Shown: positions 228 to 2,491 of the stretch, in pieces | Layout: each line of letters opens with the position of its first letter | How positions within the stretch are numbered: position 1 is the first letter of the stretch | Assembly (NCBI GenBank): GCA_964228865.1 | Contig: CAXRAI010000045.1 | Span: forward strand, 1 to 59,753 | Source of the DNA: Salinimicrobium sp. | GTDB taxonomy: Archaea > Thermoplasmatota > Poseidoniia > Poseidoniales > Poseidoniaceae | Direction of reading: 5' to 3' | Length of the DNA: 59,753 nucleotides | Notes under the pieces: model-generated | Databases searched by the model: none | Told to the model about the DNA's origin: nothing | Seen by the model: the letters and a program-made list of their open reading frames with translations, nothing else | Position numbers and translations under genes: made by a program

Positions 228-1613
228 TCAAGAACGCTTGGGGCCACGGCGGCGACGCTTGCCTCCGCCATCTTCGGCTTCCTCGCGCTTGGCGCGCTCT
301 TCACGGGACGAGCGGCGATTGCCCCCGCCGCCCCCACCGCGCTTGCCTCCACCGCCTTGCTTGGCGATGTCTGCGCGAATCTTGCGTCCGTCGACCTCCT
401 TGCCGTTGATCGCCTCGACCACCTTCGCAGCGTCGGCGTCTTCGGCGATGAAGACGAAGCCGAAGCCCTTCGAGCGGCCGTTGTCCATCACCAGGTCGGC
501 GCCGACGACGTTGGCGTGTTCGGCCACGAGGGCTTTGAGCGCGTCAACGTCCGTGTCGAAGGAGAGGTTGCCGACGTAGAGCTTCGTGCCCTTGGGCTGC
601 GGCTTGCGCTCGCCGCGCTCCCGCTTCTGGTCCGCATCGCGAACACCAATGCGGCGGCCGTTGATGCGCTTGCCGTCCAGCGCGGCGATGGCGGCATCGG
701 CATGGGCCTTCTCGCCGTAGGTCACGAAACCGAAGCCACGGGAGGTCCCAGAGTCGTCGGTCATCACGACGCAATCGGTCATGTCACCGTGCGCAGAGAA
801 GAGTTCGCGAAGTTTGTCGGTGTCCACGCCCCGGTCCAGGCCGCCAATGAAGAGACGGCATCCGGGCGCGCTGCGCTGACGGCGTTGTCCGCCACCACCG
901 CCACCGGTGTCAAAGCGGGGGTACTCGCGAGGCCGGCCGTCTTCACGAACGTCCTCAGCAAGGAAGCTGGCGCGAGCGGCCGGACCCTTGGAGAAGTGCG
1001 CTTCTGTGGCGCCGGTCCAGCGCTTGCCTGCGCCGTTCAGCGCGGCATGACCTTCACCCATACCGTATCCATCAGCAAGCGCGCGGAAGGTGCGCTCACC
1101 GCAATTCGGGCAGTGCATGTTCCAGTCGCCTTCCTGGTCCGGAACCATGGTGGTGCCGCAGTGGTGGCACAGCGCATGAAGGACGCCAGATGCGGCGTCG
1201 TTGCGCATGTCGATGCGGAGCACAGGAGAGGCGGCGGTGACCACCGCTCGGCACACGTCACGACGACGGAGGCCGTCACTGACTTGGTGGAGGTAGCGGT
1301 CAACGATGTCCGTCACGCGAAGTTGAGCACGGAGTTGATCGGCCACAGGAGGAACGTCTTGCCCTTCGACGCTGACGATGACCAATTCGGCGTTCTTCTC
1401 GTTGACCTTGTCAACGACGCCGATGACCACGTCTCCGACCTTGATGTCCATCACGTGGTTCAGGGCTTCCACGCTGACCGAACCGTCGGCTTCGTGGACG
1501 TGCCCGAGCACGGTTGCAATCAGGTCGGATCCGTGCACGGCCGTGCCGGGTCCAGCGGTTTGGGCAGGATGGGTCCCGACCTTGGTGCCGGGCGTGACGA
1601 GGCTCGTCGTCAT
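228..1613 (-). CDS. csl4: Exosome RNA-binding subunit Csl4 fused to two RRM domains and a Gly/Arg-rich tail
   Basis: N-terminus has Csl4 architecture (VTPG..VG...GPGT, S1-like KVGDVVIGVV, Zn ribbon CHHCG...CPNCG, R.LA..YG). Two RRMs follow, with RNP2/RNP1 motifs LFIGGL/RGFGFVTY and LYVGNL/KGFGFVFI. Start placed at ATG 1613 (MTTSLV). Confidence 0.85.
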   Translation of the reverse strand: MTTSLVTPGTKVGTHPAQTAGPGTAVHGSDLIATVLGHVHEADGSVSVEALNHVMDIKVGDVVIGVVDKVNEKNAELVIVSVEGQDVPPVADQLRAQLRVTDIVDRYLHQVSDGLRRRDVCRAVVTAASPVLRIDMRNDAASGVLHALCHHCGTTMVPDQEGDWNMHCPNCGERTFRALADGYGMGEGHAALNGAGKRWTGATEAHFSKGPAARASFLAEDVREDGRPREYPRFDTGGGGGGQRRQRSAPGCRLFIGGLDRGVDTDKLRELFSAHGDMTDCVVMTDDSGTSRGFGFVTYGEKAHADAAIAALDGKRINGRRIGVRDADQKRERGERKPQPKGTKLYVGNLSFDTDVDALKALVAEHANVVGADLVMDNGRSKGFGFVFIAEDADAAKVVEAINGKEVDGRKIRADIAKQGGGGKRGGGGGGNRRSSREERAKREEAEDGGGKRRRRGPKRS

Positions 1614-1685: not shown

Positions 1686-2306
1686 TCAAGCGCGGGTGAA
1701 GCGCCGGCAAAGCACCTCGGTGTCTCGCCGTCCGCTGCGCTGATGGGCATGGACGAGCGGCAAACGAAACGGGGCACGAAGGACGTCCTCCGATTGCCAT
1801 CCATGACCCGCCGCCAAGGCTTCCACATGACTTGCCTCGGCATGATGCATGAGGTGAATCACCTCCGCTTCGCTGGTGAACATCGCTTCGAGGATCGGCC
1901 GGTCGGCTCCCGTGGTTTGCACGCCCCATGGCGGATTGCTGATGAGGACCGCTCCATGAACGGAGGCGAGGTCGTCCACCGACTGAACAGCCTCCACGAC
2001 CACGGTCACGTTCGCTTTGTGATCAGCCGCGTTTCGTTCGGCCACCTCGGCCACGGAAGGGTCGGCCTCGATGAGGCGCACGGAGGTCGCACCGAGCATG
2101 ACCGCACCCAAACCGAGGATGCCGTTGCCCGCGCCGACGTCGATGATCTCACGGCCCTCAAGGTCCCCAAAAGCGGCCATGGCAGCGAGCCACTCCGCCG
2201 CAAGGTTGCCCTCGGTGGCGTATTGCTCGAGGTCTGAGCGTTGCATCGGATGGGGCTCCAGTGAGGAGAGCGCCATCGCCAGATGCCGAAGGCGCACGTT
2301 GTTCAC
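1686..2306 (-). CDS. METTL5-like SAM-dependent (rRNA m6A) methyltransferase
   Basis: LEQY.T motif, DVGAGNG SAM-binding motif and NPPW catalytic motif. Next to csl4, as in many archaeal genomes. GTG start overlaps the upstream stop. Confidence 0.85.
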   Translation of the reverse strand: MNNVRLRHLAMALSSLEPHPMQRSDLEQYATEGNLAAEWLAAMAAFGDLEGREIIDVGAGNGILGLGAVMLGATSVRLIEADPSVAEVAERNAADHKANVTVVVEAVQSVDDLASVHGAVLISNPPWGVQTTGADRPILEAMFTSEAEVIHLMHHAEASHVEALAAGHGWQSEDVLRAPFRLPLVHAHQRSGRRDTEVLCRRFTRA

Positions 2307-2491
2307 CAGCGTGGTGGTTGGCCCTGACCGTAGCCTTGCTGCGCCTGAATTTGCTGCATGATGATGCGAATTTGCTCCGCTTCAGCACGGAGACGGGCCA
2401 CCAGTTGTTCACCCGGTTGTTGGGCTCCACAGAAGCGGCAAAACCGAATGTTGTCGGGATGCTGCTGACCGCAGTTGATGCAGAATCCCAT
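2303..2491 (-). CDS. Small zinc-ribbon protein with Gln-rich tail
   Basis: FCINCG...FCRFCG pair of CxxC motifs, followed by a helical and QG-rich tail. TTGAAG element 29 nt upstream of the ATG. Confidence 0.75.
   Translation of the reverse strand: MGFCINCGQQHPDNIRFCRFCGAQQPGEQLVARLRAEAEQIRIIMQQIQAQQGYGQGQPPRW

What the first reader, a model, noticed from the sequence alone, without database searches (positions are those of the whole stretch)
228..1613. Archaeal exosome cap subunit Csl4 fused to tandem RRMs and an RGG-like tail
Seen: a complete Csl4 (NTD, S1, Zn ribbon), a ~65-aa linker, two canonical RRMs (about nt 860-630 and 587-360) with intact RNP1/RNP2, and a Gly/Arg-rich basic tail. 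Established: characterised archaeal Csl4 proteins end at the Zn ribbon and recruit DnaG. RRMs are typical of eukaryotes and some bacteria and are rare in archaea. Eukaryotic exosomes use separate RRM adaptors such as RBM7 or Nrd1/Nab3. Inference: this lineage may have built an RNA-selecting adaptor directly onto the exosome cap, an archaeal RNA-targeting module convergent with eukaryotic adaptors.
Basis: partly seen in the sequence, partly recalled or inferred. Interest (0 to 1): 0.82.

Follow-up and report, generated by a model that had tools for sequence, protein, structure and literature searches.

The report
Exosome cap Csl4 fused to RRMs
In this ocean archaeon (Marine Group II) the only gene for Csl4, a lid subunit of the RNA-degrading exosome, is a real and strongly conserved fusion to two RNA-binding RRM domains and a basic tail, which probably gives the machine its own RNA-catching arms, though this is untested.

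Summary
Window 228-1613 (-) is one open 461-aa gene. It has a full-length Csl4 (NCBIfam equivalog above cut-off, four invariant zinc-ribbon Cys, best PDB match A. fulgidus Csl4 2BA1), a 66-aa extension, two RRM_1 domains with intact RNP1/RNP2, and a Gly/Arg/Lys tail.

It is not an assembly artefact. Contigs from independent runs show no indels, full-length relatives occur across the family, and dN/dS is 0.009-0.21 in every part against the two nearest relatives.

The fusion is order-wide in Poseidoniales, in three architectures:
- two RRMs
- one RRM
- treble-clef zinc finger plus one RRM

Every RRM found in 59 of 61 Poseidoniales genomes lies in csl4. The sister order keeps a 186-aa Csl4 and a separate ~85-120-aa RRM protein, so the fusion probably arose at the base of the order. 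No Csl4-RRM fusion was seen in the other Thermoplasmatota sampled, but three lineages carry RG-rich tails on Csl4.

The genome keeps Rrp4, Rrp41, Rrp42 and DnaG. The function (built-in RNA-capturing arms on the exosome cap) is inferred, not shown.

Databases label the protein simply 'Csl4'. I found no paper describing the fusion. This scan has already met it in at least 8 other genomes. I class it as a new variant of a known kind.

The parts
228..1613 (-). Whole CDS of the fused Csl4-RRM-RRM protein (461 aa plus stop at 228-230)
   Evidence: full-length relatives; the only Csl4 in the genome
1062..1601 (-). Csl4 module, aa 5-184 (N-terminal domain, S1-like barrel, zinc ribbon)
   Evidence: NF034126 96.8 bits, model positions 2-179 of 180; 2ba1_A E 1.2e-17; Foldseek top hit 2ba1_A E 9.6e-18; pLDDT 80-91
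1494..1601 (-). N-terminal domain, aa 5-40 (ECR1_N)
   Evidence: PF14382 28.5 bits, cut-off 27
1194..1442 (-). S1-like beta-barrel, about aa 58-140. The bounds are inferred from strands in the model.
   Evidence: strands 62-70, 74-82, 95-99, 120-127 and 132-135 in the AF2 model; covered by the Csl4 family model
1086..1175 (-). Zinc ribbon, aa 147-176, with Cys 149, 152, 168 and 171
   Evidence: weak zinc-ribbon Pfam hits; the four Cys are invariant in 42 of 42 sequences
951..1061 (-). Order-specific conserved extension after the zinc ribbon, aa 185-221, predicted helical. N193, G196, R198, W199 and D221 are invariant.
   Evidence: 42 of 42; helices 189-193, 201-207 and 211-221; dN/dS 0.026 and 0.028 for aa 185-250; no Pfam hit in this stretch
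864..950 (-). Disordered Gly/Arg-rich linker, aa 222-250
   Evidence: pLDDT below 50 over 222-250; 7 G and 7 R of 29 residues
624..863 (-). RRM1, aa 251-330; RNP2 is RLFIGGL, RNP1 is RGFGFVTY
   Evidence: PF00076 (nt 648-854, 72.9 bits); beta-alpha-beta-beta-alpha-beta fold in the model; dN/dS 0.016 and 0.009
594..623 (-). Short basic inter-RRM linker, aa 331-340
   Evidence: pLDDT below 50 over 331-339
360..593 (-). RRM2, aa 341-418; RNP2 is KLYVGNL, RNP1 is KGFGFVFI
   Evidence: PF00076 (nt 375-581, 57.5 bits); NF058537 best stretch aa 345-418; 50-56% identity to small standalone RRM proteins
231..359 (-). Gly/Arg/Lys-rich tail, aa 419-461. It includes a predicted helix at 436-446 (nt 276-308) on the conserved S.RE..A.REE motif, and a KR-rich end.
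   Evidence: the motif is conserved in f1 and f2 sequences
1686..2306 (-). Upstream co-directional methyltransferase gene (206 aa), 72 nt before csl4. It is a conserved neighbour and probably in the same operon.
   Evidence: PF05175 MTS 35.8 bits; the same MTase-csl4 order is seen in the sister order (loci L026-L028)

Best explanation
This is the organism's single Csl4 gene. I infer that the protein sits, like other archaeal Csl4s, on the Rrp41/Rrp42 ring as an RNA-binding cap subunit.

From the peripheral zinc ribbon it extends:
- a conserved helical segment
- a flexible Gly/Arg linker
- two RRMs
- a basic tail

Most likely these act as tethered arms. They bind single-stranded RNA through the RNP1/RNP2 surfaces and the RG-rich stretches, raise the local RNA concentration at the S1 pore, and so widen or bias the choice of substrates for phosphorolytic 3'-5' decay (or for tailing in the reverse reaction).

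Shown here: the gene, its domains, its conservation, its distribution, and the presence of partner genes. Inferred: incorporation into the exosome, RNA binding by the RRMs, and the effect on substrate choice.

Origin: a small prokaryotic-type RRM/glycine-rich protein was fused to Csl4, probably at the base of Poseidoniales.
For: **Csl4 identity.**
- The equivalog model is above cut-off over its full length.
- 2BA1 Csl4 is the best match by sequence and by fold.
- It is the only Csl4 in the genome. The only other hit to the query is the N-terminal domain of Rrp4.

**Partner genes in the same genome.**
- An rrp4-rrp41-rrp42 cluster is present. Rrp41 scores 315.5 bits, Rrp42 235.4 and Rrp4 121; all three are best hits but below the curated cut-offs.
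- DnaG scores 354.5 bits against a cut-off of 300.
- DnaG is found in 36 of 37 Poseidoniales genomes.

**RRMs look functional.**
- The RNP aromatic residues are kept in 37-42 of 42 sequences.
- dN/dS against the two nearest relatives is 0.016 and 0.009 for RRM1 and 0.062 and 0.024 for RRM2. The Csl4 core gives 0.057 and 0.105.

**Architecture.** The model shows confident domains joined by segments with pLDDT below 50, and pTM is 0.45. That means beads on a string.

**Distribution.**
- All 201 of 201 order genomes match the query. Family f1 shows near-full-length matches. Family f3 matches only aa 4-250, yet its frames are 430-480 aa long and carry a zinc finger plus one RRM.
- In 61 genomes at least 88% complete, 28 of 29 f1 genomes (plus G000) have exactly 2 RRMs in one frame. 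29 of 30 f3 genomes have an RRM hit: 28 have one and one has two. All listed frames are 301-598 aa.

**Sister order.** It has a separate 186-aa Csl4 (157.7 bits) and a separate 84-120-aa RRM protein.

**Elsewhere in the phylum.** Csl4 frames are about 185-260 aa, and no RRM fusion was seen in those checked.
Against: - There is no experimental datum on this protein.
- The complex prediction of Csl4(1-250) with DnaG gave no answer. It counts neither way and is recorded under Tried and rejected.
- Rrp4, Rrp41 and Rrp42 score below NCBIfam's curated cut-offs, so they are called by best hit and gene order only.
- RNA evidence is one 191-nt contig in a metatranscriptome library, which does not prove transcription.
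- The RRM tree does not resolve the donor. The fused RRMs do not group with the sister order's standalone RRMs (quick tree, 84 columns), and by identity they are closer to unnamed small proteins (50-56%) than to the sister-order ones (40-45%).
- Sequence specificity cannot be read from the sequence.
Confidence: 0.6

Rival explanations
1. RNA-chaperone reading. The RRM plus Gly/Arg module is a tethered RNA chaperone of the cold-shock, glycine-rich RRM type. It melts or holds structured RNA for a helicase-less exosome in cold sea water, rather than selecting particular substrates.
For: - The RRMs match the small prokaryotic Rbp model NF058537 (110.1 bits).
- They are 50-56% identical to ~100-aa RRM/glycine-rich proteins, some of which sources label 'cold-inducible RNA-binding protein'.
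- RG-rich tails alone, without an RRM, were added to Csl4 in three other Thermoplasmatota lineages. This suggests that general RNA affinity is what is selected.
Against: - Two RRMs with very low dN/dS, and family-specific architectures such as the zinc finger plus RRM in f3, suggest more than non-specific binding.
- No temperature or expression data were examined.
- This reading overlaps the best explanation rather than excluding it.
Confidence: 0.2
2. Exosome-independent reading. The fusion protein mainly works away from the exosome ring, as a free multi-domain RNA-binding protein (S1 + Zn + 2 RRM) in translation or mRNA stabilisation. Alternatively, the RRMs serve as protein-protein modules.
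For: - Standalone RRM proteins exist in relatives without any link to csl4.
- Bacterial Rbp3 is reported to interact with ribosomes and mRNA 3' ends (PMC12232666; title and start of the abstract only, listing).
- pTM of 0.45 shows no fixed contact between the arm and the Csl4 body.
Against: - It is the only Csl4 in a genome that keeps Rrp4, Rrp41, Rrp42 and DnaG.
- The Csl4 part keeps the family signature over its full length and is under purifying selection.
- The RNP aromatics, which are RNA-binding residues, are conserved.
Confidence: 0.12
3. Artefact reading. The long ORF results from a frameshift, a chimeric assembly or a read-through of two genes.
For: - The gene lies at the very start of its contig (window = C45:1-59753).
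- Some database entries are truncated calls that begin at an internal Met in RRM1 (P0131, P0132, P0136).
Against: - The same uninterrupted frame is found in f1 genomes across 11 genera.
- Contigs from runs of different studies carry no indels.
- dN/dS is well below 1 in every part.
- In the two genomes with no RRM hit (G016, G039), the Csl4 match is also missing or weak. The two disappear together.
Confidence: 0.01

Closest known systems
Canonical archaeal Csl4 (A. fulgidus AF_0206, PDB 2BA1/3M7N/3M85; NCBIfam NF034126)
   Same: The N-terminal domain, S1 barrel and 4-Cys zinc ribbon are present over the full model length. It is a single-copy gene in a genome that also has Rrp4, Rrp41, Rrp42 and DnaG.
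   Different: It carries 277 extra C-terminal residues: a conserved helical extension, two RRMs and a basic tail. Canonical Csl4 is about 180 aa (chain length 179; frames of 185-260 aa in the phylum).
Small prokaryotic RRM / glycine-rich proteins (NCBIfam NF058537 'RNA-binding regulator'; cyanobacterial Rbp type)
   Same: One RRM followed by a Gly/Arg-rich tail, with the same RNP1/RNP2. RRM2 is 50-56% identical to such proteins. The sister order has them as 84-120-aa genes.
   Different: Here the RRM is duplicated and covalently joined to an exosome subunit. No standalone copy was found in the Poseidoniales genomes searched.
Eukaryotic exosome adaptors with RRMs (RBM7 in NEXT; Nrd1-Nab3). The comparison rests on recall plus the listing (PMC5146272, start of the abstract).
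   Same: The idea is the same: an RRM brings RNA to the exosome.
   Different: The eukaryotic adaptors are separate polypeptides that act through the helicase Mtr4 or through Rrp6. Here the RRMs are part of the cap subunit itself, and no helicase link was examined. It works like them at most and is not a member of those complexes.
Archaeal DnaG as a Csl4-bound RNA-binding accessory (S. solfataricus; PMC3672285 and PMC4227792, starts of the abstracts in the listing)
   Same: It is an extra RNA-binding module attached to the exosome through Csl4. DnaG is kept in this genome and in 36 of 37 order genomes.
   Different: DnaG is a separate subunit with a Toprim fold. The RRM arm is covalent and of a different fold. 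Whether both are present on the same particle is unknown.
Csl4 with RG-rich tails in other Thermoplasmatota (loci L040, L041, L042)
   Same: Csl4 extended at the C-terminus by disordered Arg/Gly-rich sequence.
   Different: These have no RRM and no conserved post-ribbon helix (Pfam finds only ECR1_N in L041 and L042).

Membership tests
Archaeal Csl4 (NF034126 / PRK09521) | Family model matched over its full length and above the curated cut-off | tested here: met
   96.8 bits against a cut-off of 90; aa 5-184 match model positions 2-179 of 180
Archaeal Csl4 (NF034126 / PRK09521) | Three-domain fold (N-terminal domain, S1, zinc ribbon with 4 Cys) | tested here: met
   ECR1_N; Cys 149, 152, 168 and 171 invariant in 42 of 42; Foldseek top hit 2ba1_A at E 9.6e-18, TM 0.65 on the target
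Archaeal Csl4 (NF034126 / PRK09521) | Partner genes for the Rrp41/Rrp42 ring and Rrp4 in the same genome | tested here: met
   rrp4-rrp41-rrp42 cluster on C15. The scores are best hits but below the curated cut-offs.
Archaeal Csl4 (NF034126 / PRK09521) | Physical incorporation into the exosome cap | not testable with these tools
   Needs reconstitution or pull-down
Archaeal Csl4 (NF034126 / PRK09521) | Recruitment of DnaG | tested here: inconclusive
   The DnaG gene is present (354.5 bits). Binding could not be assessed.
RRM_1 (PF00076) | Profile match above the gathering score, twice | tested here: met
   122.6 bits overall; 72.9 and 57.5 bits per domain
RRM_1 (PF00076) | Beta-alpha-beta-beta-alpha-beta fold with RNP1 and RNP2 aromatics | tested here: met
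   Secondary structure; F255, F294, F296, Y346, F384 and F386 conserved
RRM_1 (PF00076) | Binds single-stranded RNA | not testable with these tools
   Needs EMSA or CLIP
Small prokaryotic Rbp (NF058537) | Domain model above cut-off | tested here: met
   110.1 bits against a cut-off of 100; best stretch aa 345-418
Small prokaryotic Rbp (NF058537) | Standalone protein of about 80-130 aa | tested here: not met
   Here the domain is part of a 461-aa Csl4. All RRM frames listed for Poseidoniales are 301-598 aa.
Eukaryotic RRM adaptors of the exosome (NEXT, NNS) | Separate adaptor complex acting through Mtr4 or Rrp6 | tested here: not met
   The RRMs are in the same polypeptide as Csl4. It is an analogy only.

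The most novel reading that the evidence does not exclude
The fusion is a 'Rosetta stone'. On this reading, small RRM/glycine-rich proteins of prokaryotes are substrate adaptors of the phosphorolytic 3'-5' decay machine (the exosome in archaea, perhaps PNPase in bacteria). Poseidoniales hard-wired this adaptor into the cap, giving up to six RRMs per particle. That would create a sequence-selective, multivalent RNA-targeting exosome, functionally convergent with the eukaryotic NEXT and Nrd1-Nab3 adaptors. The family-specific versions (2 RRMs against zinc finger plus RRM) would tune different target sets in Poseidoniaceae and the second large family.
Probability: 0.3. Interest if true: 0.8.

Novelty: new variant of a known kind. 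Interest (0 to 1): 0.6.

Why it matters

An exosome whose cap subunit carries its own RRMs would be the first archaeal case of an RRM-based targeting module on this machine. It offers a simple, reconstitutable system (Rrp41, Rrp42 and this Csl4, with or without the arm) to ask how accessory RNA-binding domains set substrate choice. In eukaryotes that question needs multi-protein adaptors.

The unfused state in the sister order, and the RG-only tails in other Thermoplasmatota, give natural controls. The fusion also hints at a function for the little-studied standalone RRM proteins of prokaryotes.

On the practical side, database names ('Csl4', 'nucleolin', 'hypothetical') hide the architecture.

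Tried and rejected
1. **Complex prediction.** Complex prediction of Csl4 aa 1-250 (alignment A1) with the genome's DnaG (alignment A2) returned 'no answer', score 0.00 in both runs. Controls were not run. It says nothing either way.
2. **Longer forms of canonical Csl4.** The search for homologous proteins with the sister-order 186-aa Csl4 and lengths 'longer' examined 1424 candidates, and none reached E<=1e-5. This is weak evidence at most that other long Csl4 forms are rare.
3. **RRM tree.** It used 133 domains and 84 columns. Only the quick IQ-TREE run was used because the careful search did not finish.
   - The origin of the fused RRMs is unresolved.
   - The fused RRMs fall outside an 85%-supported group holding all 81 small standalone RRM proteins, the 5 sister-order ones and the two RRMs of one tandem-RRM protein.
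   - The f2 RRMs cluster together (95), which may mean a separate duplication.
   - I draw no donor from it.
4. **Naming the nearest small RRM proteins.** The listing of cluster members gave no names for 9 of 9. Only two names appeared (Patescibacteria, Phycisphaeraceae).
5. **Long Csl4 open frames outside the order.** I fetched 10 loci.
   - 6 were upstream read-through in high-GC DNA, ending where a normal Csl4 ends.
   - 1 had a short (~45-aa) non-RG tail.
   - 3 had RG-rich tails.
   - None had an RRM.
6. **High-scoring multi-RRM proteins.** P0244, P0246, P0251, P0253, P0302 and P0268 have 3-11 RRMs and no Csl4 domain.
7. **Apparent 186-192-aa 'standalone tandem RRM' proteins.** P0131, P0132 and P0136 start at an internal Met of RRM1. 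I read them as truncated gene calls.
8. **RNA evidence.** One 191-nt metatranscriptome contig (X18) and partial cover in X16, which is flagged 'probably DNA'. This is not enough to claim expression.
The phrase does not occur in the 15 Marine Group II papers listed. Supplements are closed, so it remains unchecked.
Full report
**What is there.** The minus strand of window 228-1613 holds one uninterrupted ORF of 461 aa with an ATG start. A TTG 60 nt upstream would add 20 residues. Relatives in the same genus begin at the same MTTSLVTPG, so I use the ATG.

Domain evidence:
- Pfam finds the exosome N-terminal domain ECR1_N (aa 5-40) and two RRM_1 domains (E 6.1e-36), plus weak zinc-ribbon hits at 147-176.
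- NCBIfam's Csl4 equivalog NF034126 scores 96.8 bits (cut-off 90) over aa 5-184, which is model positions 2-179 of 180. The small prokaryotic RRM model NF058537 scores 110.1 bits (cut-off 100).
- By sequence, the best solved Csl4 is A. fulgidus 2ba1_A (179 aa; E 1.2e-17; query 5-187 against chain 3-178). The RRMs match PABP, nucleolin and hnRNP A1/A2B1.

An AlphaFold2 model built on a 42-sequence alignment has mean pLDDT 73.9 and pTM 0.45. It shows:
- a confident Csl4 body
- three short helices at 189-221, with falling confidence
- a disordered stretch at 222-250
- RRM1 (251-330)
- a 9-residue disordered link
- RRM2 (341-418)
- a disordered tail with one helix at 436-446

Foldseek's top PDB hit is again 2ba1_A (E 9.6e-18), followed by tandem-RRM proteins.

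**It is a real gene.** Several lines agree.
- 543 database proteins match at E<=1e-3. Nearly all of the best 120 listed are 463-485 aa, 50-95% identical, and carry both PF00076 and PF14382. Sources name them 'Csl4 [Candidatus Poseidonia sp.]', 'Poseidoniaceae archaeon', 'nucleolin' or 'hypothetical'.
- 15 DNA runs from 5 studies hold at least 89% of the sampled words.
- In the four runs laid there are no indels or joints. One contig spans nt 228-1043, across both RRMs, the extension and the end of the zinc ribbon.
- Nei-Gojobori dN/dS against the two closest relatives (L005, L006) is shown below. The added parts are at least as constrained as Csl4 itself.

| Part | dN/dS vs L005 | dN/dS vs L006 |
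|---|---|---|
| Csl4 core | 0.057 | 0.105 |
| aa 185-250 | 0.026 | 0.028 |
| RRM1 | 0.016 | 0.009 |
| RRM2 | 0.062 | 0.024 |
| Tail | 0.098 | 0.209 |

- In alignment A1 the RNP aromatic positions are kept in 37-42 of 42 sequences and the four ribbon Cys in 42 of 42. Five positions beyond the canonical Csl4 end (N193, G196, R198, W199, D221) are also invariant.

**Genomic setting.** The window is contig C45 of an 85%-complete, 1.85-Mb genome.
- The query finds only itself and the N-terminal domain of Rrp4 in that genome.
- RRM_1 finds only the two domains of this gene.
- The genome has an rrp4-rrp41-rrp42 cluster. Rrp4 scores 121 bits, Rrp41 315.5 and Rrp42 235.4. All are best hits, and all are below NCBIfam's cut-offs.
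- It also has an archaeal DnaG (354.5 bits, cut-off 300) and a bacterial-type RNase PH.
- A methyltransferase gene (PF05175) lies 72 nt upstream on the same strand. The same MTase-csl4 order is seen in the sister order.

**Distribution.** In 201 genomes of the order (three coded families), all match the query.
- Family f1 includes the window; database names indicate Poseidoniaceae. It shows near-full-length matches (1-460) at 40-96% identity.
- Family f3 is presumably Thalassarchaeaceae. NCBI taxonomy lists two named families, and the assignment is my inference. It matches only aa 4-250, yet its frames are 430-480 aa. Translation and Pfam show Csl4, then the same conserved post-ribbon segment, RG repeats, a treble-clef zinc finger (PF23477), one RRM and an RG tail.
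- The small family f2 has one genome with two RRMs and one with a single RRM.

A scan of 61 genomes of the order that are at least 88% complete gives:
- 28 of 29 f1 genomes (plus G000) have exactly two RRM_1 hits in one frame.
- 29 of 30 f3 genomes have a hit: 28 have one, and one has two on two contigs.
- All listed frames are 301-598 aa.
- The two genomes without an RRM hit (G016, G039) also lack a good Csl4 match.

So in the genomes searched, every RRM of the order sits in csl4.

**Outside the order.** Five genomes of the other families in the same class have a separate Csl4 of about 186 aa and a separate RRM protein in frames of 101-121 aa. For example, L026 scores 157.7 bits on the Csl4 model, and L022 scores 121.1 bits on NF058537. 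One of these RRM proteins has a Gly/Arg-rich tail much like the one at the end of the fused protein.

In a 221-genome sample of the phylum, 215 match the Csl4 model, and outside Poseidoniales the frames are mostly 185-260 aa. Of the 10 longest frames that I fetched:
- 6 are upstream read-through
- 1 has a short tail
- 3 (families f11, f18, f49) are Csl4 with RG-rich tails of 55-125 aa and no RRM

RRM_1 is found in 58 of 161 phylum genomes. Outside the class it is found in 23 of 125, always in frames of 80-158 aa. None of the four archaeal control genomes has it.

An all-library search of 1.84 billion cluster representatives lists, among its best 150, nine full-length fused representatives that fit the three architectures, plus partial ones. 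Six of the other high scorers, checked with Pfam, are multi-RRM proteins without Csl4. A weaker fusion in another phylum would fall below that list, so I write 'not found', not 'absent'.

**Origin.** The unfused state in the sister order and the fused state in all three families place the fusion most simply at the base of Poseidoniales. The building block looks like a small RRM plus Gly/Arg protein.

The RRM tree (quick run, 84 columns) does not resolve a donor. The fused RRMs do not group with the sister-order proteins. By identity RRM2 is 50-56% identical to unnamed small proteins (two are named Patescibacteria and Phycisphaeraceae), against 40-45% to the sister-order ones.

**How it probably works (inference).** In solved archaeal exosomes the Csl4 zinc ribbon lies at the rim of the cap and the S1 domains line the pore; this is established from 2BA1/3M7N and recalled here. 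A C-terminal extension of about 37 conserved and 29 disordered residues would let two RRMs and a basic tail sweep the space above the pore.

With one to three Csl4 per particle this gives two to six RRMs. I therefore favour tethered RNA-capturing arms that raise affinity and bias substrate choice for decay or tailing.

A chaperone role for structured RNA is a close rival. A mainly exosome-independent role is less likely, because this is the only Csl4 and the Csl4 part is intact. The invariant N-G-RW-D segment after the ribbon has no Pfam match and no explained role. It may be a docking element.

**Literature.**
- Full-text searches for Csl4+RRM+archaea gave 9 papers, all on eukaryotes or general.
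- Poseidoniales+RRM gave 0 papers.
- 'Marine Group II'+'RNA recognition motif' gave 0.
- 'Archaeal exosome'+RRM gave 14, none on this by title or abstract. I checked passages of PMC11789484; it concerns a fungal protein.
- Csl4+Poseidoniales gave 2, and Csl4+'Marine Group II' gave 2.
- The only substantive co-mention is the Undinarchaeota paper (PMC7414124). The passages I read concern loss of Csl4 in DPANN, not this fusion.
- Supplementary tables of Marine Group II pangenome papers could not be opened and may list the gene under another name.

**Earlier notes of this scan.** At least eight other windows from other genomes carry follow-up notes describing the same fusion. My independent tests agree with them.

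**Verdict.** This is a lineage-wide, strongly constrained architectural variant of a known exosome subunit. It is unremarked in the papers I could search, and its function is untested.

Noticed in passing
own genome C49, locus L031:1114-1935 (-): A bacterial-type RNase PH (TIGR01966, 234.7 bits, cut-off 141.5) is encoded alongside a full archaeal exosome set.
   Followed up: no
own genome C18, locus L032:901-2178 (+); loci L044-L060: DnaG in f1 genomes carries a 15-37-aa N-terminal Gly/Arg/Asn/Ser-rich extension before the conserved MKY start. DnaG in f3 genomes lacks it.
   Followed up: partly
loci L041:1647-2594 (-), L042:1983-2930 (+), L040:1839-2918 (-): Csl4 in three other Thermoplasmatota families (f11, f49, f18) has RG/RGG-rich C-terminal tails of about 55-125 aa but no RRM. 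This looks like a recurrent tendency to add basic disordered tails to this cap subunit.
   Followed up: partly
loci L027:1495-2052 (+), L028:1495-2040 (+): The 182-186-aa Csl4 of sister-order family f4 seems to lack the four-Cys zinc-ribbon pattern (read by eye from the translations).
   Followed up: no
phylum family f20 (for example G276, G286, G301): 11 of 12 genomes have standalone RRM proteins. Most f20 genomes give only weak hits (E about 1e-4) or no hit to the Csl4 model; 19 of 24 match at all.
   Followed up: no
loci L014-L018 (f2 and f3 genomes): A gene of about 450-575 aa with a conserved 'WLVIDGYEDEPAAFGVP' N-terminus lies directly beside csl4 in f2 and f3. It looked radical-SAM-like by eye, and I ran no family scan on it. 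In the window the neighbour is a small methyltransferase instead.
   Followed up: no
window 276-308 (-), aa 436-446: A short predicted helix lies on a conserved C-terminal motif (S.RE[LE][QR]A.REE) followed by a Lys/Arg-rich end. It is shared by f1 and f2 proteins and absent in f3, and its role is unexplained.
   Followed up: partly
window 2303-2491 (-): A 62-aa ORF just upstream of the methyltransferase begins with a CxxC...CxxC pattern (MGFCINCG...FCRFCG). It appears only in the mechanical ORF list.
   Followed up: no
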